DNA from: a virus
Lineage: Duplodnaviria; Caudoviricetes
Length of the DNA stretch: 39,612 bases
IMG/VR virus record: IMGVR_UViG_3300022897_000007
Location: 1 to 39,612 of that record
Reading direction: 5' to 3' (one strand)
The notes below the pieces were generated by a model that was not told the origin of the DNA, made no database searches, and was given only the letters and a program-made list of their open reading frames with translations. Shown here piece after piece: positions 10,339-32,492 of the stretch. The stretch's first letter is position 1. Each line of letters starts with the position of its first letter. Position numbers and translations under genes: made by a program.

Positions 10339-11580
10339 CTACCGTTCCTGGTTGAAGGCGTTGACGATGATGCACGGGACGTACACCGAGATCGCGCGCA
10401 TGAGCTTCCCGGACTGGTTGATGTACCCGGCCTGGCTGCGCAGCCCCGGCCCGTAGGTGCCGAGCACGTCGACCTGAGTGATCAGGCCACCGAGGGTGAA
10501 CCCAGCGTGGAACGCGTTGAACAGCAGGTTCACCACCCGGGTCATTTCCGGGTCGATAGCGTCGGCCGGTTCGCGCAGCATGTTGTCGTACAGCCGGAAC
10601 ACGAACTCGATCCGCAACGACGTCTTGGCTAGCGTCGACAGTTCCTTGATCGGGTCGATCGACTGGAACCAGACTGCCGCCGACAGTCCGGCCGTCACGT
10701 CCGTCTTCGGCTCGTGCAGCTTGATCCGCTCGAACGCGCCGAGCCGGCCAGCGTAGGACGAGAGAGCGTTCATGATTTGGCCGACGTCGAACCCGTCGGA
10801 CTGGTCGGCGGGCAGCGTGACCTTGATAGCCCCGGCGCGGTAGCCGGTCGCGCCCTCCGAATCCGTCACCGACACCAGCACCGGGTAAATCCCGGACGCC
10901 GTGTACGTGTGCGACTCCGTCACATCCGGGTACGTCGACACCGAGTCGGCGGTGAAGTCACCCCAGTCGAACCGCACCGTCGCGCCGACCAGAGACTCAG
11001 CATCCGTCACCGACGCGACCGCGGTCACCGTGCCATCCAGATCCACCAGCGCCAGATCAGTGATCTCCGGCGGGGTGTTCCCGCCGATCCCCAGCGAGTA
11101 GACGACATCGACGCCGTAGAACCCTCGGCCCGCCGTGCCGGTCGCGGGGAAGTCGCCCGGCGTGCCGTTGAACCGGCCATTCTGGCCACCGGGTGCGTTG
11201 GCGAATCCGAGGCTGGTCACCGCCCCATCGGCGGACACCACGTCCGCGTCCAGCGCATGATTCGCGAATCCGTAATTACCGCCTGACCCGAAGCTGACTA
11301 CCCACTGTTGGTTCAGGGTCCGCTCGACCGGCGTGTCCAGCGGGAACTCGACCCACCCCGCCGACAGGTTCGTCGGGAGATTAATCCGGGACAACTGCGC
11401 GCCGCCGGTGGACCAGATCGTGGCCGTCCGCCCCACCAACGCCACCGGCCCGGCACCCGACCACACCCGGATACCGGTGATCGTGATGTCCTCGTTCGCC
11501 TTCTGCGCGGTCCCCATCTCGTAGGTGTCCGCGTCGATGATCTGTGTCGGGTCCGGCCCGGACCAGCCGACAGCCATCAC
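10339..11580 (-). CDS. Tail terminator-like protein fused to DUF4082-like and PKD domains
   Basis: YEMGT..ITITGIRVW..YGVDVVY (DUF4082-like); FDWGD..SHTYTASGIYPVLVSVTD (PKD); C-terminal HEPK..FTLGG domain in tail-terminator position. Confidence 0.7.
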   Translation of the reverse strand: MMAVGWSGPDPTQIIDADTYEMGTAQKANEDITITGIRVWSGAGPVALVGRTATIWSTGGAQLSRINLPTNLSAGWVEFPLDTPVERTLNQQWVVSFGSGGNYGFANHALDADVVSADGAVTSLGFANAPGGQNGRFNGTPGDFPATGTAGRGFYGVDVVYSLGIGGNTPPEITDLALVDLDGTVTAVASVTDAESLVGATVRFDWGDFTADSVSTYPDVTESHTYTASGIYPVLVSVTDSEGATGYRAGAIKVTLPADQSDGFDVGQIMNALSSYAGRLGAFERIKLHEPKTDVTAGLSAAVWFQSIDPIKELSTLAKTSLRIEFVFRLYDNMLREPADAIDPEMTRVVNLLFNAFHAGFTLGGLITQVDVLGTYGPGLRSQAGYINQSGKLMRAISVYVPCIIVNAFNQER

Positions 11581-11966
11581 GCACCGCCCAGACGGCGAAT
11601 CAGCTGCTCAACGTACGGCTGCACCACAGTGGGGACCTTGCGCTGCAACTCCTGCGTGGTCTCCCGCACCGACTTGTACCCCTTGAACTGGGTCGTCCGG
11701 TTCCGGCTGCCGGTGCCCTCCAGCCACGGCCCGTAGACGATGCCCTGATCGTGAGCCCACACGATCTCCGGTGTCTGCCGCTCCAGCATCAGCTGGGTCT
11801 CGTAGTACGGGGTCGGGTCTTTCAGCCGCTGGTCCAGCTTGTGGTGCCAGTCCGCGAGGCCTTGCGCGCCGACGACCCAGGTGGCCTCGGTGACGAAGTC
11901 GTCGACCATGGGCAGTGGGTTGCCGGTCAGGAACGTCCCGTGGATCTCGACCGAGGTGCCGATCAC
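11577..11966 (-). CDS. HK97 gp10-like tail completion/neck protein
   Basis: YGPWLEGTGSRN motif; position after head-tail adaptor. Confidence 0.65.
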   Translation of the reverse strand: MIGTSVEIHGTFLTGNPLPMVDDFVTEATWVVGAQGLADWHHKLDQRLKDPTPYYETQLMLERQTPEIVWAHDQGIVYGPWLEGTGSRNRTTQFKGYKSVRETTQELQRKVPTVVQPYVEQLIRRLGGA

Positions 11967-21139: not shown

Positions 21140-22714
21140 TTACCCCTCCAACCACAAGTCACGATCACGGAACCGGACACCCAGGTCCCTATCAGCCACA
21201 AGATACCTCACGCAATCGGCCCCGTGATCATCCACTTTCAACGGCGATTCCTTCTCAGCCTTACCATCGGCCGCCGGCTCCCACACGTAACCACCGAATT
21301 CCTCAGCCGTGCACTGCGGCTTACCCGCCGCCTTCAACGACTCATCCCGCTCCACCAACGAATCCGGCAAAAGCACCAGACCCGGCCGGCCGTTCCCGGC
21401 CACCTCCAACCGCGCCTCGACCGCCTGAATCCCCTCGGTCACCGTCTTCCTAGCGGCAGTCGTGCCCATGCCGAGATGCGCCGTCAGGGTCGCGCGGCCT
21501 TCTGCATCGTGGTCGCAGATGATCGCCTGCGGCTGCGGCTCCGTCCACACCAACAGACCCTGCTCCAGCGCGTCGGCTGGCTTCTCCCGCGTGAACGCCA
21601 CCTGCTCCCGGGTCAGCTTCAACCCCGGCCCGATCCGCGTCACCAGCTTCAAGATCTGCCGAGCGTGATCCTCGACCAGCCGCTTGGTGTGGTAGATCTC
21701 CCGGTACAGGACCAGCTGCCCGTCCGGGTCCTGCGCCCACCACTGGCACACGAACGGATTCTTGTACCCGAAGTCGACCACCCAGAACCGCGGCCACTCA
21801 GCCGGGATCTTCTTCGGCCGCTTGTCCGGGATGTGCACCGCCGGATCCCAGTTGTCATAGACCAGCCCATCCGCCGCGGTCCACAGCCCATGCCTGAGGC
21901 GCTGCTTGCGGACACCGGTCAGGTTGTCCAGGCGGCCGAGGTACGACACCCCAGCTTCGGTGATCCGATACAGGCGGCCTTCGTGCTCCTCGACCACACC
22001 CGGCTGCAGGTCGGTCGAGCCGGTGGCCGGGCCGAGGTCTTCGAAGTAGCGGGGGTTCTCCCAATGCTGTGCATACAGAATGCTGGTCAAGCCCTCATCG
22101 CAGCGCTGCTTCAACCAATGCGTCGGCCGATCCGGGTTGCAATCCGCGATGATCTGCTGAAACGACACCGCCCCGTTACGCAGACGGCTGGTGAGGAACT
22201 CCCAGTCCTTCGGGACCAGCTCCGTCGCCTCACCCACATACACCAGGTCGACCTCGGCACCCATGACCTTGGTGACGTTGTCCAGCCCGGTCAGGAAGAT
22301 CTTGGAGCCGTTCGCGAACCGGTACTGCTCCGGCTCGCTACCGGACCCGCCGTAGTAGACGCACAGGCCGCCCGCGATGGCCTCGACTGCGACGTGCTCA
22401 CGCCACGTCTGCAACGTCGTCGACGTCAACGACTTGTGGGTCTTGCGCGCGATCAGGCCCACGAACGGCCGGTGCTCGACCACCTTCCCCGCGCTGTCGC
22501 GCACTGGCCCGCCGTCGGCCGCGGTGCGGACCTTCCCGTTCAGCAGCGCCATCAGCAGCAGCTTCTCGAGACAGGCCCGGGTCTTGCCGGGGCCGGCCGG
22601 GCCGGACACGAGGACTTCGTTGTCGCGGCAGTTGAACAGGCGCAGGGCGCTGCCGCGGGGTGTGTATTCGTGCCGGAGTTCGTCCTGCTCGGCTGGCGCG
22701 ACGGTGACGGTCAT
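21140..22714 (-). CDS. terL: Terminase large subunit (PBSX-like)
   Basis: Walker A GPAGPGKT, Walker B-like VYVGEATE, DCNP, VDFGYKNP nuclease motif, DDHGADCVRY. Confidence 0.93.
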   Translation of the reverse strand: MTVTVAPAEQDELRHEYTPRGSALRLFNCRDNEVLVSGPAGPGKTRACLEKLLLMALLNGKVRTAADGGPVRDSAGKVVEHRPFVGLIARKTHKSLTSTTLQTWREHVAVEAIAGGLCVYYGGSGSEPEQYRFANGSKIFLTGLDNVTKVMGAEVDLVYVGEATELVPKDWEFLTSRLRNGAVSFQQIIADCNPDRPTHWLKQRCDEGLTSILYAQHWENPRYFEDLGPATGSTDLQPGVVEEHEGRLYRITEAGVSYLGRLDNLTGVRKQRLRHGLWTAADGLVYDNWDPAVHIPDKRPKKIPAEWPRFWVVDFGYKNPFVCQWWAQDPDGQLVLYREIYHTKRLVEDHARQILKLVTRIGPGLKLTREQVAFTREKPADALEQGLLVWTEPQPQAIICDHDAEGRATLTAHLGMGTTAARKTVTEGIQAVEARLEVAGNGRPGLVLLPDSLVERDESLKAAGKPQCTAEEFGGYVWEPAADGKAEKESPLKVDDHGADCVRYLVADRDLGVRFRDRDLWLEG

Positions 22715-22779
22715 CGCAGCTGTTTGCAGAGGCAGTTGGTCCAGTCACAGTCCACTGTGCACTCTTTGTCGCTCATCAT
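22711..22779 (-). CDS. Cys4 micropeptide A, 22 aa (MMSDKECTVDCDWTNCLCKQLR)
   Basis: ATGA overlaps at both ends (upstream gene stop; TerL start); AAGGA RBS; paralogous to 15682-15753. Confidence 0.75.
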   Translation of the reverse strand: MMSDKECTVDCDWTNCLCKQLR

Positions 22780-23147
22780 TGATCCTTGTCGTCGTGCTCG
22801 GCCGGGTCCGGTCGGGCGATGCTGATCTCCGCGCCGTTGTCCACGATGATCGCCTTGTGCTCGGGGAACACCCGCTCGAGCCGGGCGAGGAACCTGTCTT
22901 GGTCTCTCTCGTTGCCGGCGTCTCTGACCTGGACGACGATGACGTCGCCGGGTTGGAGGCGCATGATCCGCACCGACTCGAACCCCGGCTCATCCGGTTC
23001 GCACATGTGCGCAGTCCCCACCAGAACGCCCGTGCCGCACTTGCACCGCTCGTACAACGGCCCATCCACGTCGCGCGGGTCGGTGCCGCTGCCGCGTTGC
23101 AGCCGGATCGGTGGCTGCTGACGTGGGCTGATCATTCCGTCAGGCAT
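22776..23147 (-). CDS. Hypothetical protein
   Basis: CKCG..HMC plus LQPGDVIVV domain; coupled at both ends. Confidence 0.6.
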   Translation of the reverse strand: MPDGMISPRQQPPIRLQRGSGTDPRDVDGPLYERCKCGTGVLVGTAHMCEPDEPGFESVRIMRLQPGDVIVVQVRDAGNERDQDRFLARLERVFPEHKAIIVDNGAEISIARPDPAEHDDKDQ

Positions 23148-23440
23148 CAGATGAACTCCGTTCCAGTCGCCTCAACCCACGCAATCGAGTCCTGCCCATA
23201 CCCATCCCGCAGCAGAGCCAACGCAGCCTTGAGCGTGTGCGGTGTCTCGGTCGCGATGGCGATGCACGCGTTCTGGTATGAGGAGCTGGGCTCGGACACC
23301 CAGTCGCCGTACACCTCGCTGGCCGCTTTCGCCATGCACTCGCGGAAGCTGTGCAGGTAGTTCGACCATGCGGCTTGGGTGAGCTTGTCGTCGCTGTTGC
23401 CGATCGACGCATAGACCACGGTCAGCTGTTTGTCAGGCAT
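23147..23440 (-). CDS. Hypothetical phage protein
   Basis: VYASIGNSDDKLTQ..QNAC..QDSIAW; GGGAG RBS. Confidence 0.7.
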   Translation of the reverse strand: MPDKQLTVVYASIGNSDDKLTQAAWSNYLHSFRECMAKAASEVYGDWVSEPSSSYQNACIAIATETPHTLKAALALLRDGYGQDSIAWVEATGTEFI

Positions 23441-23774
23441 TCGTCATCTCCCTGATCATCACTCTGGCTGGCGCCATCCCGCAGTCGTCCAGCACGCACC
23501 GGTTCTCCGGCAGGCCCAGCCACACCGACCCCGGCCAGCCACACACCGCCTCATGCTCGTGCTCACGCAGCACGGTGCCTGACGCGCGCGCGATCGGCTC
23601 GTGCTCGGCACAGGTCGCCACACTGACCGTGCCGTAGTGGCCGGGGTCCTGGATCATCAGGTGCCGGACAGCTGGCTTGGTGCAGCGCGGGTCGGCGGGT
23701 GACCGGCCGTGGAACAGGCAGCCGCCGTCTGAGGCGTGCATCGGGTCGGCCTCGGCACCGATGTGCGGCCTCAC
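23433..23774 (-). CDS. Cys/His-rich hypothetical protein
   Basis: GTGA overlap at 23771-23774; several C/H ligands. Confidence 0.6.
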   Translation of the reverse strand: MRPHIGAEADPMHASDGGCLFHGRSPADPRCTKPAVRHLMIQDPGHYGTVSVATCAEHEPIARASGTVLREHEHEAVCGWPGSVWLGLPENRCVLDDCGMAPARVMIREMTNA

Positions 23775-24061
23775 GACAGGTTCCCGAGGTCGTGGCACAG
23801 CGTGTCCGGGATCCGGTACTGCCAGATGACCTCGGCACTCGCGCTGCTCCCCACACGGCCCACCCTGGTCACCTCAGGGCCACGCTCCAGCACGTTCAGG
23901 CTGTGGATGGGTTCCTGAGGTCCCAGCGGGTCGCCGATCATCCTGAGTCGAGCGTCGACCTCTGTGGTGGTCATCGGGCGGCAAGCAGCCTTGAGCACGG
24001 CGAGGATGGCTTGTCTGGCGAGCTGGGCGCGTTTCTCCGGTGGTCGTCCGTAGGTGGTCAT
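23771..24061 (-). CDS. Putative winged-HTH protein ending in DLGNLS
   Basis: AILAVLKAACRPMTTTEV..SLNVLER..VTRVG..IWQY wHTH-like pattern; ATGA start. Confidence 0.55.
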   Translation of the reverse strand: MTTYGRPPEKRAQLARQAILAVLKAACRPMTTTEVDARLRMIGDPLGPQEPIHSLNVLERGPEVTRVGRVGSSASAEVIWQYRIPDTLCHDLGNLS

Positions 24062-24333
24062 GAGAGGTTCCCGAGGTCGACGCCGCCCACCATCGCTCGC
24101 AACCGCGTGAGCGTGGCCGAGTCCAGCCGCTCCACTTGCCGGCCGTACTTCCGCGGCGCAGGATGCGGCAGCGTGCCCCGGTTCCTGGCCAGGCCGCAAC
24201 AACCAGCGCACATGCCATATGACGCGCGCCGGACATACCTCTGCTCGCGCAGGGTGGCGAACCGCTTGTACGCCTCGTACTGCACGGTGAGACGGCCGCA
24301 GTCGATACACGGAATGATCACCACCCTCATCAC
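24058..24333 (-). CDS. Zn-finger protein ending in GVDLGNLS
   Basis: CIDC and CAGC pairs; basic composition. Confidence 0.6.
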   Translation of the reverse strand: MMRVVIIPCIDCGRLTVQYEAYKRFATLREQRYVRRASYGMCAGCCGLARNRGTLPHPAPRKYGRQVERLDSATLTRLRAMVGGVDLGNLS

Positions 24334-24554
24334 GCACCGCCCTTAGCCAGTTCGTGCGCGGCCCAAGACAGCGCATCAGCCACCAGCGCCACCTGCCGGA
24401 GCTTCTCCGCAGGCATCCAGTCGATCGCGGCCACGGCCTGGTCCAGATCGGCCTGAAGCAGGTAACCGATGGCGCCTTGTGCGTGCCGGATGATCCCGGC
24501 CTGTTCACCACCGCCGCGCAGTCGGCGAATGGCATCCGCGTGTGGGTTCGTCAT
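24330..24554 (-). CDS. Hypothetical protein
   Basis: ATGA overlap with TerS stop; GTGA overlap downstream. Confidence 0.6.
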   Translation of the reverse strand: MTNPHADAIRRLRGGGEQAGIIRHAQGAIGYLLQADLDQAVAAIDWMPAEKLRQVALVADALSWAAHELAKGGA

Positions 24555-25027
24555 GACAGGTTCCCCAAGTCCACGCCGTTCACCTGGTAGGTGATCTGGC
24601 CGTTCACCGTCACCTGAGCTGGCGCGTTCGTCCCGTTCAGCTTGGCCTGCGCCTCGATCGTCGCCCGCAGATCCCGCAACGCCTGCATCTCAGGGCCGGA
24701 GTCCCGCAACGGCTGGCCTTCTGTGTCGCGCACGATCTCGCCGCCGGAGATCGTGACGTGATCCCGGTCCGCGATCTCCTCCAGCCGCGCGAGGACCATC
24801 TCCAGCCGCGCGTTCTGCTGGGCACGCATCTCGGATACGGCCAGCTGAGGAGCCGCGGCGACCGTCTTCCAGTACATGGTGTGCGCGTTCTGTTTGGTGA
24901 TACCGAAATGCTCGCCTATCTCGGCGTAGGTTTTCCCGGATTCTTTGAGGCGAACGATCTCGGCGTTGCGTTCAGCGAGTTGTGATGGCGTCAAGCGGTC
25001 TTGGGTCAACGCGTCGTCGGTGGTCAT
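24551..25027 (-). CDS. terS: Terminase small subunit (HTH type)
   Basis: N-terminal HTH (GKTYAEIGEHFGIT), helical middle, AKLNGTNAP, C-terminal ITYQVNGVD strand; first large gene upstream of TerL. Confidence 0.75.
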   Translation of the reverse strand: MTTDDALTQDRLTPSQLAERNAEIVRLKESGKTYAEIGEHFGITKQNAHTMYWKTVAAAPQLAVSEMRAQQNARLEMVLARLEEIADRDHVTISGGEIVRDTEGQPLRDSGPEMQALRDLRATIEAQAKLNGTNAPAQVTVNGQITYQVNGVDLGNLS

Positions 25028-25139: not shown

Positions 25140-25189
25140 GGGCTCCCCTCGTGTGTGACTGTGTGTAGTGGTTGTGGGTGGTGGTGGTG

Positions 25190-25356
25190 GGTTTGTGACA
25201 GGGGATAGTTACAGGTGACGCCGTGTCTGTAACTGGGTAACTACTGTCACTTCTGTCACTAAGGGTCACTGTCTGTTATACCCTGTCACCGTACGTTAGA
25301 GTTAGTTACATAATTACAGTTGTTACATATAAAATGTCTCCAGAGAGCTGTAACTA
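25190..25356. other. Putative replication origin (iterons plus AT-rich segment)
   Basis: Dense GTGACA/TGTCAC/GTTACA/TGTAAC hexamers in both orientations; very AT-rich tract ~25295-25340; directly after helicase. Confidence 0.65.
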
Positions 25357-26853
25357 AGGGGCGTCACTTTCATCCGGTGGCAGTGTGTAGTTGCCGCGCA
25401 GGGGTGAGGTCAGCTGACCACGGTCTGTCATGCGGCGCAGGAACTGCCGCACCGTGCCCGGCTTCACGTCGTCCAGTTCATCGGTGATGGCCTTCACCGG
25501 CACCAGGCCGTTCTGCTGTGTCACAAACTCGAGGATCCGCTCGACCACCTCGCTGTTGGCCTTGGCCGGCCGCTTGGGTTCCATCACCGACGCGATCGAG
25601 CGGGTGTCTTCTCCGTCCCACACCACCCGGCTGGTGGTGATCGAGTCCAGGACGCCGGGCTGGTCGGACTCGACCTCGATCGTGACCTGGATGATCCGGT
25701 AGGCCATCGAGGGCTGTTTGGGGCCGAGGTTGGACTTGACGTGCCCGAACAGGTACCGGTCTTCGTGTTCGTCCTCGGGGTCGACGATGCAGTACAGGAC
25801 GCTGCGCGCGACGGCGGTGAACGCGCGGGAGGCCATGATGGAGTTGAGCGGGTCGTGGCCGCCGGACTTGTTCACGTGGATCAGGCCGAGCACGGACACG
25901 CCGGTGGTGGAGCAGAACTGGGCCAGCGGGTCCAGGACGGTCCGAACCTCTTTGTCCTTGTGGGTGTCCACCCCGCCCGGGATCACCGACATGAGCGGGT
26001 CGAGCACGATCAGCGCGATGTCGTGGGTCACGCACAGGGTCGTGAGCCGGTCGAGGTCGCCGGGCACGCTCATGGTGGTCGAGTAGCCCTCGACCGTCCG
26101 CGCGTCGATCTGGAACACCCGCGACCGATCCGCTCCGGCCGCGTGCAGGCGGGGAAGGATGACCTCTTCCCAGGCGTCCTCGGTGGCCACGATCCCGACC
26201 CCGCGCGGACTGCCGTAATACTCTCCCGCCAGCCGCCCGGTGGTGAGCTCACCGATGATGTCGTAGCTGGTGGTGGACTTCCCGATGCCCTCCCGGCCGG
26301 TCAGGAGAGTAATAGCGCCCAGCGGGATCCGCAGGTGCATCAGCCACCGCGCGGCGCGCATGGGGCGGCCGGCGGCGGTGATGGCGTGCAGGGCACGGCC
26401 GTTGGTGGGGCGTTCGCCCTGCATCGCGGCGGCGAACACGGCCAGCTCGTTCTGCAGCGCGAGCAGCCGCGAGTCGCTGGGCTCGGCACCGGCGAGCTGG
26501 GTGAGGCGTTGCCCGGCCTGCATCATCCGACGCCCGTTCGCCGCCTGCAGCACCCGATCGGCCGAGGCTTCGGCCATGGCGCCGGTGATGCCGTAGGAGA
26601 ACAGCTTCAGCAGGTACGGCCCGGCGTCGGGGTAGCCGAGGCGTTCCAGCTCGTCGCGGACGGTGTCGGGGTTGATCTGCTGGCCACGTGAGTGCAGGGT
26701 CAGGATCGCGGCGTGCACGCGCTGTTTCGGGCCGGGCTGGAAGTCGTCGGTGGCCAGCCTGCGGGCGGCGGTGACACCGTCGGGTCCGTTGAGCGCGGCC
26801 GAGAGTACGAACTCTTCGGCGTTGACGTCCTCGGGGGGCAGGGTCGTGGTCAT
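25354..26853 (-). CDS. Replicative helicase/RepA-like ATPase (DnaB-N-like, AAA_25, C-terminal wHTH)
   Basis: PPEDVNAEEFVLSA DnaB-N-like start; GREGIGKST Walker A; LIVLDPL Walker B; HVNKS, KSNLGP; ATGA start. Confidence 0.85.
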   Translation of the reverse strand: MTTTLPPEDVNAEEFVLSAALNGPDGVTAARRLATDDFQPGPKQRVHAAILTLHSRGQQINPDTVRDELERLGYPDAGPYLLKLFSYGITGAMAEASADRVLQAANGRRMMQAGQRLTQLAGAEPSDSRLLALQNELAVFAAAMQGERPTNGRALHAITAAGRPMRAARWLMHLRIPLGAITLLTGREGIGKSTTSYDIIGELTTGRLAGEYYGSPRGVGIVATEDAWEEVILPRLHAAGADRSRVFQIDARTVEGYSTTMSVPGDLDRLTTLCVTHDIALIVLDPLMSVIPGGVDTHKDKEVRTVLDPLAQFCSTTGVSVLGLIHVNKSGGHDPLNSIMASRAFTAVARSVLYCIVDPEDEHEDRYLFGHVKSNLGPKQPSMAYRIIQVTIEVESDQPGVLDSITTSRVVWDGEDTRSIASVMEPKRPAKANSEVVERILEFVTQQNGLVPVKAITDELDDVKPGTVRQFLRRMTDRGQLTSPLRGNYTLPPDESDAP

Positions 26854-30468: not shown

Positions 30469-30635
30469 TGCGGGATCTGTTGTTCGGTACGCCGGCTGGC
30501 TGGCAGTTGGACGTGTGGCTGGCGGTGTCTTCCGTCGATAGCCGCGTGTGGTGGGTGCCTGCGTCGGTTGTGTTGGTGGTGCGTTTGGTGGCCGACTTCC
30601 GGGCAGTGAAGAGGTGGCCCGATGGCAAGCCCTGA
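30468..30635 (+). CDS. Small hydrophobic protein
   Basis: TGATG start; Trp-rich hydrophobic. Confidence 0.5.
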   Translation: MRDLLFGTPAGWQLDVWLAVSSVDSRVWWVPASVVLVVRLVADFRAVKRWPDGKP

Positions 30636-31521
30636 GGCAGACGAATGGGCCAGCAAAATCAGCTACGGCATGCCCCACGACGTCTACCTCAAAGACCCCG
30701 TACCCGGCGGCAGCCTCTCCAGCTCCGGCGCCCGCATGCTGCTGGAACCCAACTGCCCCGCCAAATTCCACTACTGGCGCACCCGCCGCCGCCCACCATC
30801 CACCGAGTTCGACCTCGGCACAGCAGCCCACAAAGTCCTCCTCGGCGCCGGCCCGGAACTGGTGGTGATCGACGCAGACAACTACCGCAAGGGCGCGCCG
30901 AGGGTCGAGCGCGATCAGGCGTACCTCGCCGACAAGACCCCCGTCCTGCAACACCAGATGGACCAGGTCGAGGAGATGGCCGCCGCCGCTCGCCGTGACC
31001 CGGTGGCCGGGCCGTTGCTGGCCGAGGGGACCGGTGAGCCTGAGGTGTCGTTCTTCTGGATCGACGGCCCGACCGGGGTCCACTGCCGGGCGCGCCTGGA
31101 CTACCTGTCCTCGCTGTACACCAAGGATGGCCGGCTGATCATCCTGGATTACAAGTCGTGTCGGTCGGCCGCTCCGGCGAAGATCGAGCGGGCGATCCTG
31201 GATCACGGCTATCACATGCAGGCGCCGCATCTGATCGACGCGGTGGTGAACACGGGGCACGCCGAGGACGCGGTGGTCTTGTTCATTTTCCAGGAGAAAG
31301 AGCCGCCGTATTTGGTGACGGTGGTCGAGCCTCATCCGATATCGGCTGTGTGGGTGGGTCGGGAATTGAATGATAAGGCGCGTAGGGTGTTCGCTAAATG
31401 CAGTGCGGCGAATGTGTGGCCGGGTTATGCGTCGGATATTGTGGAGATTGATCTGCCTATTTGGGAACAGCAGCGCATGCAGCGCGTCGTGAATGCACAT
31501 CCGATTAGGGGAATAGCATGA
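30622..31521 (+). CDS. RecE/exonuclease VIII-like PD-(D/E)XK nuclease
   Basis: LSSSG, GTAAH, EVSFFW, RARLD, DYKS, YHMQA, EKEPPY motifs. Confidence 0.88.
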   Translation: MASPEADEWASKISYGMPHDVYLKDPVPGGSLSSSGARMLLEPNCPAKFHYWRTRRRPPSTEFDLGTAAHKVLLGAGPELVVIDADNYRKGAPRVERDQAYLADKTPVLQHQMDQVEEMAAAARRDPVAGPLLAEGTGEPEVSFFWIDGPTGVHCRARLDYLSSLYTKDGRLIILDYKSCRSAAPAKIERAILDHGYHMQAPHLIDAVVNTGHAEDAVVLFIFQEKEPPYLVTVVEPHPISAVWVGRELNDKARRVFAKCSAANVWPGYASDIVEIDLPIWEQQRMQRVVNAHPIRGIA

Positions 31522-32492
31522 GTGACCTGGACATCAGCACACCGTCATCGGACCGGACCAGCCAATCGACCCGGGTCGAGCAGGCGCGCGCCATGGCCGA
31601 GGTCCGCGCGGCCATGGCGATCGCGATGGAAAACCCGCGATCGACCAACCTGGCTCGCTCTCGTATGCATGACTCGTGCGCACAGATGTCGTTGGCAGAG
31701 CGCGCTTTCTTCCGGTTCCCCCGCTCCGGCGGGATGGTCACCGGCCCGACCGTGCACCTGGCGCGGGACCTCGCGCGGTGCTGGGGCAACATCGTGCACA
31801 GCGTGAAAGAGCTGTACCGCAACGATCTCCGGCTGGAGTCGGAGATGCTGGCCGCCGCGTGGGACATCGAGACGAACACGCGGGTGGAGCTGGGGTTCAT
31901 CGTGCCGCACAAGCGGGACGTGAAGACCGACGTGGTGGCGATCACGAGCATGCGGGACATCTACGAGAACAACGCCAACGCCGGTGCTCGCCGACTGCGT
32001 GAGGCTATCTTCGGTGTGCTTCCGTTGTGGTTCAAGGAAGAGGCACAGGAGCTGTGCCGTGCGACGTTGGAACGTGGGTCGTCTGGCGGTAAACCTGCTG
32101 TGCCGCTTCAGGTCCGGAAGGACCGGGCGATCGAGTGGTTCGCTGCCAAGGGGATCACGCGTGAGCACCTTGAGGACAAGCTGGGTGAGCGGGAGGGGCG
32201 GTGGCGTCCGATCGACGTTGCTCAGCTGGTGATCATCACGCAGTCGTTGAACGCTGGTGAGTCGACGCTGGAGATGGAGTTCCCGCACAGGTTCACGCGT
32301 TCGGCGGACATCGAGCCGGCTGCGGCGACAGCGCGGCCGGCTTCGGTGAACACGAAGGTTGAGCAGTGGCAGCCGCCGGTTGAGGAGCCTCAGGTGCCAG
32401 CGGATTACGTGTGTGATGTGTGCACGGCGAAAGGTCAGCATTTCCAGGACGTGTGCCCTGATTTGGAAATCGACACCAGCAAGCTTGACTGA
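31518..32492 (+). CDS. Putative ssDNA-annealing (RecT-position) protein
   Basis: Coupled to RecE-like gene; FPR.G..VTGPTVHLA..ARCWGN, AWDIETN motifs; C-terminal CxxC..H..C knuckle. Confidence 0.6.
   Translation: MSDLDISTPSSDRTSQSTRVEQARAMAEVRAAMAIAMENPRSTNLARSRMHDSCAQMSLAERAFFRFPRSGGMVTGPTVHLARDLARCWGNIVHSVKELYRNDLRLESEMLAAAWDIETNTRVELGFIVPHKRDVKTDVVAITSMRDIYENNANAGARRLREAIFGVLPLWFKEEAQELCRATLERGSSGGKPAVPLQVRKDRAIEWFAAKGITREHLEDKLGEREGRWRPIDVAQLVIITQSLNAGESTLEMEFPHRFTRSADIEPAAATARPASVNTKVEQWQPPVEEPQVPADYVCDVCTAKGQHFQDVCPDLEIDTSKLD

What the first reader, a model, noticed from the sequence alone, without database searches (positions are those of the whole stretch)
23771..24577. TerS C-terminal tail (GV)DLGNLS-stop is reused by two neighbouring DNA-binding-type proteins
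Seen: three of four consecutive genes end in the same peptide. TerS ends NGVDLGNLS* (24551-24577), the Zn-finger ORF GGVDLGNLS* (24058-24084) and the wHTH-like ORF CHDLGNLS* (23771-23791). The DNA is GGC GTG GAC TTG GGG AAC CTG TCA TGA / GGC GTC GAC CTC GGG AAC CTC TCA TGA / GAC CTC GGG AAC CTG TCG TGA; all differences within the shared residues are synonymous. Each copy also supplies the A/GTGA start of the next gene. Established: in phage lambda and P22 the TerS C-terminal region contacts TerL. Inference A: the two proteins carry a TerL-docking tag and act as alternative DNA-recognition adaptors, decoys or inhibitors of packaging, perhaps against satellites or competitors. Inference B: the terS 3' end is a recombination hotspot where gene cassettes accumulate between terS and terL while preserving translational coupling.
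Basis: partly seen in the sequence, partly recalled or inferred. Interest (0 to 1): 0.85.

Follow-up and report, generated by a model that had tools for sequence, protein, structure and literature searches.

The report
Terminase gene tail marks cassette insertions
Two small phage genes end in a real copy of the last 21-27 bases of the small DNA-packaging (terminase) gene, most likely scars left when genes were recombined in behind it and the next gene had to keep its overlapping start, a known kind of phage gene shuffling that also turns up at the same spot in two other phage lineages.

Summary
In detail: three in-frame DLGNLS-stop copies, not chance, not misassembly. The 158-aa gene behaves as TerS. 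None of 24 zinc-finger homologues has the tail; it is grafted where their natural C-terminus ends. The zinc-finger copy is 27/27 identical to another phage's terS end and 23/27 to this phage's own, so the synonymous-only differences reflect TerS alleles, not selection on the tag. Only the DLGNLS frame stops inside the repeat, so the shared peptide follows from the DNA copy plus stop/start overlap. The same duplication occurs in 3 other of 68 terS loci (14-27 nt, unrelated recipient genes), never including the conserved Y-x-V strand. A published precedent exists (mycobacteriophage Island3 genes 67/68). Against: the wHTH tail persists in both known homologues, and TerL binding could not be modelled, so a docking role is not excluded (about 10%).

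The parts
24551..25027 (-). terS, small terminase subunit (158 aa; N-terminal HTH, conserved C-terminal tail)
   Evidence: HTH hits; top Foldseek rows are G20c TerS in PDB (E about 0.05, weak) and a Streptomyces phage TerS in BFVD (E 4.8e-5); homologues abut terL in many loci and in phage P1312
24551..24577 (-). Repeat copy R1: native terS 3' end, holds the ATG of gene A
24330..24554 (-). Gene A, 74 aa, no family; first gene of the 780-nt block between R1 and R3; does not carry the tail
   Evidence: one 208-nt contig of run X8 matches it without difference
24058..24330 (-). Cys-motif (zinc-finger-like) gene, 90 aa, with grafted tail
   Evidence: 24 distant homologues, none with the tail; metal or DNA binding not tested
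24058..24084 (-). Repeat copy R2; similarity to terS extends to about 24091 through a GGTGnnCGG microhomology
   Evidence: 27/27 identical to the terS end of L006, 23/27 to own terS
23771..24061 (-). Winged-helix-like gene, 96 aa; domain ends near residue 85, tail follows
   Evidence: Atlas structure rows PadR/FUR-like, TM about 0.7 over residues 1-85; two 86%-type homologues keep the tail
23771..23791 (-). Repeat copy R3, holds the GTG start of gene D
   Evidence: 780 nt from R1, the length skipped by a contig of run X5
23433..23774 (-). Gene D, 113 aa; directly follows terS in relatives; its last about 35 nt (23433-23468) travel with gene E
   Evidence: L004 and X5; joints at 23468 and 23465 in X2 and X6
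23147..23440 (-). Gene E, 97 aa, no family
22776..23147 (-). Gene F, 123 aa; present in variant or N-terminally shortened form in L003, L005, L006
22711..22779 (-). 22-codon Cys-rich mini-ORF that bridges gene F and terL by two ATGA overlaps (inferred coupling link)
21140..22714 (-). terL, large terminase (524 aa); no Shine-Dalgarno-like pairing found before its start
   Evidence: Pfam Terminase_3, PHROG 2

Best explanation
The three DLGNLS-stop endings are DNA copies of the terS 3' end that were most likely left by recombination events that placed accessory genes between terS and terL, and the shared peptide is likely a by-product rather than a selected tag. Shown: all eight junctions from terS to terL are stop/start overlaps; the last bases of terS hold the next gene's start codon; the gene behind terS differs between relatives with the break at the terS stop; the copies match terS alleles of other phages; only one of three frames stops inside the repeat. 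Inferred: a crossover at a microhomology joined the end of an accessory gene in one phage to the terS tail of a co-infecting relative, so the gene that used to follow terS kept its overlapping start and weak ribosome-binding context; products were kept only when the upstream gene stayed whole and read into the stop frame. Inferred: once present, the 21-27-nt copies give short homology for further gain or loss of the block, and longer copies would be removed faster. The enzyme is not identified.
For: Empty-site relatives: terS directly before a gene D homologue in L004 and a contig of run X5 that skips exactly 780 nt, the R1-R3 distance. 5 of 7 non-source runs laid gave joints ending at 24550/24551 (6 joints); with L003-L006 this is at least 8 arrangements behind terS. 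0 of 24 zinc-finger homologues have the tail; 5 of 24 end 2-4 residues after the LRxxVG motif that precedes the graft. R2 equals the L006 terS end 27/27 against 23/27 for own terS. Two TerS tail haplotypes need 8 changes each on a tree of 30 TerS bodies (7-8 forced by well-supported branches; shuffled means 10.2 and 9.3), and P0021/P0031 have identical bodies with different tails. Recurrence: 4 of 68 distinct terS loci, 4 of 28 with more than 150 nt before terL, have a terS-end copy at a downstream stop (this phage; L017 27/27; L020 14/14; L201 26/26); all others score 7 or less. L018 is the empty-site form of L017 and L020. In L017, L020 and L201 the copy holds GGAGG just before the next start. 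Frame test. Precedent PMC3029335 section 13.
Against: Both known wHTH homologues keep CHDLGNL although 13-14% of the other residues differ; the overlap with the next gene can explain this but so can peptide selection. The Shine-Dalgarno-like pairing in this phage's copies is weak (-4.3 to -5.5 kcal/mol; background quartile -4.5, 10th percentile -6.0), so here the constraint rests on the overlap. A break at the terS stop is partly expected at any edge of a conserved gene. The exact-skip joint rests on one contig of depth 2.5 with 45 letters on the short side. No locus was obtained in which the wHTH gene directly follows terS. 24 of 28 loci with inserted DNA show no copy, so duplication is not required. 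No RecT, integrase or resolvase family match was found in the genome. Direction (insertion here or deletion in relatives) is not settled for this block.
Confidence: 0.8

Rival explanations
1. Docking tag: whatever its origin, the tail is now kept because it lets the zinc-finger and winged-helix proteins bind TerL as adaptors, decoys or inhibitors of packaging.
For: TerS C-termini bind TerL in lambda and P22 (PMC9611059 passages); the tail is strongly conserved in this TerS family (21 of 25 end D[LM]GNLS); both wHTH homologues keep it; the wHTH fold is DNA-binding-like; all five grafts seen are in the TerS frame.
Against: 0 of 24 zinc-finger homologues have it. Grafts are 3-8 residues (only EDL in L020) and none holds the Tyr of the family motif G-x-V-x-Y-x-V-x-G-V-D-x-x-x-L (Tyr in 70% of 66 sequences), whereas P22 uses residues 140-162. 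Recipients in L017, L020 and L201 are unrelated proteins of no family. P0028 has Ser>Pro in the tail. The frame and the synonymous pattern are explained without it.
Confidence: 0.1
2. Site-specific cassette system: the repeat is an attachment-like site and the genes are mobile cassettes inserted by a dedicated recombinase, as in integrons.
For: Array-like layout with direct repeats at cassette edges and a precise empty site; perfect 26-27-nt repeats in L017 and L201.
Against: No tyrosine integrase or resolvase match in the genome (record estimated 88% complete); copy lengths vary from 14 to 27 nt and each follows its own lineage's terS sequence; gene A, E and F carry no repeat; a comparable tail-carrying junction exists at the unrelated D/E boundary.
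Confidence: 0.05
3. Convergence: separate genes arrived at the same ending because a start-associated DNA motif is favoured before many genes.
For: The Gly codon is GGG in 7 of 7 copies though GGG is 29% of Gly codons here, which fits a DNA-level constraint.
Against: The motif occurs nowhere else in the 39.6 kb and matches terS coding sequence of relatives base for base.
Confidence: 0.03

Closest known systems
Mycobacteriophage Island3 genes 67/68 versus Brujita (PMC3029335, section 13 read whole)
   Same: An extra small orphan gene ends in a copy of the upstream gene's 3' end (18 residues, about 50-60 bp); a relative has one copy and lacks the gene; explained by recombination between short repeats.
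   Different: Here the donor is terS, the copies are shorter (14-27 nt), two copies are stacked in one genome, they carry the next gene's overlapping start, and the event recurs in three phage lineages.
Boundary (linker) sequence model of phage mosaicism (Clark et al. 2001; Susskind and Botstein 1978; seen only as cited in PMC3029335)
   Same: Short conserved sequence at a gene edge serves as the exchange point between modules.
   Different: The boundary is coding sequence held constant by TerS function, not an intergenic linker; the first graft probably needed a microhomology event.
Exchange of TerS gene segments in P22-like phages (Leavitt et al. 2013, seen only as summarised in PMC4669245 passages)
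   Same: Crossovers inside terS reassort its parts between diverged phages, as the scattered tail haplotypes do here.
   Different: That work, as summarised, concerns TerS segments, not tails copied onto other genes.
TerS C-terminal TerL-binding region of lambda and P22 (PMC9611059, 10.1101/851345 passages)
   Same: Source of the copied sequence is the TerS C-terminus.
   Different: Binding is not shown for this TerS family or for 6-8-residue remnants.

Membership tests
[quoted passage not shown]
   Pfam HTH hits below cut-off, residues 16-50; helices in the model
Small terminase subunit (TerS) | Fold like solved TerS | tested here: inconclusive
   Top 10 PDB rows are G20c TerS but E 0.05-0.17, TM about 0.3; BFVD top row annotated TerS, E 4.8e-5; model pLDDT 67
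Small terminase subunit (TerS) | Gene upstream of, usually abutting, terL | tested here: met
   40 of 68 distinct loci have 150 nt or less between the homologue and terL; P1312 gp2 overlaps terL
Small terminase subunit (TerS) | Ring oligomer, DNA site recognition, TerL stimulation | not testable with these tools
   needs experiment
Boundary-repeat gene insertion (Island3 67/68 type) | Inserted gene shares its 3' end with the upstream gene at DNA level | tested here: met
Boundary-repeat gene insertion (Island3 67/68 type) | Relative with a single copy and without the inserted genes | tested here: met
   L004, X5 joint 23792-24573; L018 for L017/L020
Boundary-repeat gene insertion (Island3 67/68 type) | Exchange carried out by general recombination enzymes | tested here: inconclusive
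   RecE-like exonuclease and RuvC-like hits; no RecT match; the gene after the exonuclease stayed unassigned
TerL-docking tag on non-TerS proteins | Tail conserved across homologues of the tagged protein | tested here: inconclusive
   not met for the zinc finger (0 of 24); met for wHTH (2 of 2, one with Ser>Pro)
TerL-docking tag on non-TerS proteins | Tail binds TerL | not tested
   Complex prediction queue was full; no model obtained
Integron-type cassette array | Dedicated site-specific recombinase next to the array | tested here: not met
   PF00589 and PF00239: 0 matches in the genome

The most novel reading that the evidence does not exclude
Insertion behind terS repeatedly hands newly gained proteins the extreme C-terminus of TerS, and in this phage the winged-helix protein (tail kept in three phages whose TerS bodies are only about 45% alike) now uses it to tether or block TerL, so that a recombination scar has become a packaging adaptor or decoy.
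Probability: 0.1. Interest if true: 0.75.

Novelty: new member of a known kind. Interest (0 to 1): 0.3.

Why it matters
It is a clean, repeated example of how phages add genes inside a tightly overlapped operon: the tail of the upstream gene travels with the downstream gene, so unrelated proteins end in the same peptide. It warns that a shared C-terminal peptide with synonymous-only differences is not by itself evidence of a selected tag. It also shows that the terS-terL interval of these actinophage-like viruses is a variable accessory-gene site. It would matter much more if the remnant tails were shown to bind TerL.

Tried and rejected
Complex prediction of TerL with the TerS tail: the queue was full, no job ran, no verdict. 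TerS protein and TerS alignment scans of viral contigs found no relative; the genome-collection scan gave one spurious Acinetobacter hit, L007, dropped from counts. Zinc-finger and wHTH scans of viral contigs gave only spurious loci (L001, L156, L157). A DNA pattern scan for the repeat gave 5 near-identical unrelated stretches where it follows a stop codon, taken as chance. The interval and the wHTH protein have no match among annotated phages. The single-sequence model of the gene at 31518-32492 was too poor to search (pLDDT 41). Tandem repeats in L014 are a repeat-protein gene on the other strand, not terS copies. Literature searches for this arrangement at terS: 0 papers; 2; 1; 7 listed; 6 listed, none relevant by listing; only PMC3029335 described a like case. 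The library lacks most subscription papers and no supplements were read, so a terS-specific report may exist. Earlier scan notes held nothing on this DNA; two notes on shared tails in archaea did not change my reading.

Full report
Setting. The window is a whole 39,612-nt virus record, 66% G+C, with a 126-nt overlap of its ends. Its large terminase is closest to those of Thermobifida and Streptomyces phages among annotated records, so an actinobacterial host is likely but not shown. On the minus strand the order is terS (25027-24551), A, zinc-finger-like gene, winged-helix-like gene, D, E, F, a 22-codon mini-ORF and terL (22714-21140). All eight junctions are stop/start overlaps of 1, 4 or 8 nt, and terL has no Shine-Dalgarno-like pairing before its start, which suggests, without proving, that terL translation depends on coupling along this chain.

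Observation. Confirmed as written. Three copies, 0.07 expected by chance, the top-ranking 3'-end matches of the genome though chance pairs come close pairwise (16, 16 and 12 against 14), and covered without difference by a separately assembled contig from what may be the same sample.

Is the gene TerS? [quoted passage not shown] I accept TerS. Its tail is conserved: 21 of 25 homologues end D[LM]GNLS, and the wider family motif is G-x-V-x-Y-x-V-x-G-V-D-x-x-x-L (66 sequences).

Relatives show cassette edges at the repeat. Four related loci each have a different gene behind terS: a shortened F in L003, a D homologue in L004, other genes in L005 and L006. Of 8 runs laid (of 9 listed), 5 of the 7 non-source runs gave contigs that leave the window's sequence at 24550/24551 and rejoin it at D, E or F; X3 looks like the L003 arrangement and is counted once. 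One X5 contig skips exactly 780 nt, the R1-R3 distance, reading terS-repeat-gene D; it is one low-depth contig with 45 letters on the short side. So gene D followed terS in other phages, and R3 is the terS end that belongs in front of D. The last 35 nt of D behave the same way: X2 and X6 keep them in front of gene E behind other upstream sequence, and they hold E's ribosome-binding site (-8.0 kcal/mol), while the D homologue of L004 ends differently.

The tails are grafts from terS alleles. None of 24 distant zinc-finger homologues has the tail; five end 2-4 residues after an LRxxVG motif, which in this protein is followed at once by GVDLGNLS. At that point the gene reads GGTGGGCGG against GGTGAACGG in terS, a plausible microhomology. 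R2 is 27/27 identical to the terS end of L006 and 26/27 to L003, but 23/27 to this phage's terS. The synonymous-only differences therefore record selection on TerS in the donors. Of the three frames through a copy, one stops in it, one fuses with the next gene and one runs 60-75 codons into it (R2, R3), so coupling alone picks the DLGNLS frame.

The terS end is exchanged often. On a tree of 30 TerS bodies cut before the conserved AKLNG, the two tail haplotypes (ITYQVNGVDLGNLS and ISFVINNVDMGNLS; my simple classing, three intermediate tails forced into one or other) each need 8 changes, near shuffled values (58 and 125 of 500 shuffles as low), and P0021 and P0031 have identical bodies with different tails. 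Segment exchange in terS is known from P22-like phages (passage in PMC4669245).

Recurrence. Of 217 loci held, 107 had a TerS match and 68 were distinct after removing duplicates and the spurious L007; 28 have more than 150 nt before terL; 4 have a terS-end copy at a downstream stop: this phage, L017 (27/27, ENVSSEDL), L020 (14/14, EDL) and L201 (26/26, INPEDLR); the rest score 7 or less. TerL of L017 and L201 is 48% and 47% identical to this one; L017 and L020 are relatives but carry different inserted genes, and L018 has the shared downstream gene directly behind terS. In these three the copy contains GGAGG before the next start. Recipients have no family match. No graft reaches the conserved tyrosine. 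All are 27 nt or shorter, close to the 23-27 bp minimal pairing length quoted for lambda Red-beta (PMC3945230 passages); that longer copies are purged by recombination is my inference.

Mechanism and rivals. Best reading (0.8): recombination scars kept by the need to preserve the downstream start. Docking tag (0.1): premise known for lambda and P22, where residues 140-162 of P22 TerS bind TerL (PMC9611059 passages; 10.1101/851345 passages), but untested here because the complex prediction could not be run. Site-specific cassette system (0.05): no integrase or resolvase match. Weak points of the best reading: feeble Shine-Dalgarno pairing in this phage's copies, no locus with wHTH directly behind terS, no identified annealing recombinase, and 24 of 28 intervals without a copy.

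Known or new. PMC3029335 (section 13 read whole; passages) describes the same kind of structure for Island3 genes 67/68 and ties it to the boundary-sequence model. I found no paper on it at terS in searches (listings only); supplements were not read, and PMC7947584 (passages) added nothing. Verdict: real, explained, a new member of a known kind; interest 0.3, with a 10% chance of a much more interesting docking role.

Noticed in passing
window 22711-22779 (-): A 22-codon ORF with four cysteines bridges gene F and terL by two ATGA overlaps; terL has no Shine-Dalgarno-like site of its own.
   Followed up: partly
window 23433-23468 (-): The last about 35 nt of gene D, with the ribosome-binding site of gene E, are kept before E behind different upstream sequence in runs X2 and X6: a second tail-carrying junction.
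   Followed up: partly
window 25141-25370: A 47% G+C stretch between the helicase-like gene and terS holds 6 of the genome's 22 GTAAC/GTTAC words and 8 GTCAC/GTGAC words; could be a replication origin or packaging site.
   Followed up: no
P0001-P0035 (TerS family): Two multi-residue TerS tail haplotypes are swapped between near-identical TerS bodies; whether each goes with a TerL type was not tested.
   Followed up: partly
window 30622-32492 (+): RecE-like exonuclease followed by a 324-aa protein of PHROG 3657, widespread in phages and unassigned; position suggests a possible annealing recombinase of an unnamed family.
   Followed up: partly
window 24330-24342 and 11577-11589 (-): Gene A and an ORF in the structural region share a 13-nt 3' end, GGGCGGTGCGTGA; within the chance range.
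   Followed up: no
L014:3400-4700: Genes on the opposite strand, one with 15-nt tandem repeats that look like a pentapeptide-repeat gene, sit between terS and terL.
   Followed up: no
L017:1076-1379, L020:4630-4822, L201:3355-3829: Independent terS-tail duplications in other phage lineages, each with GGAGG before the next start.
   Followed up: yes
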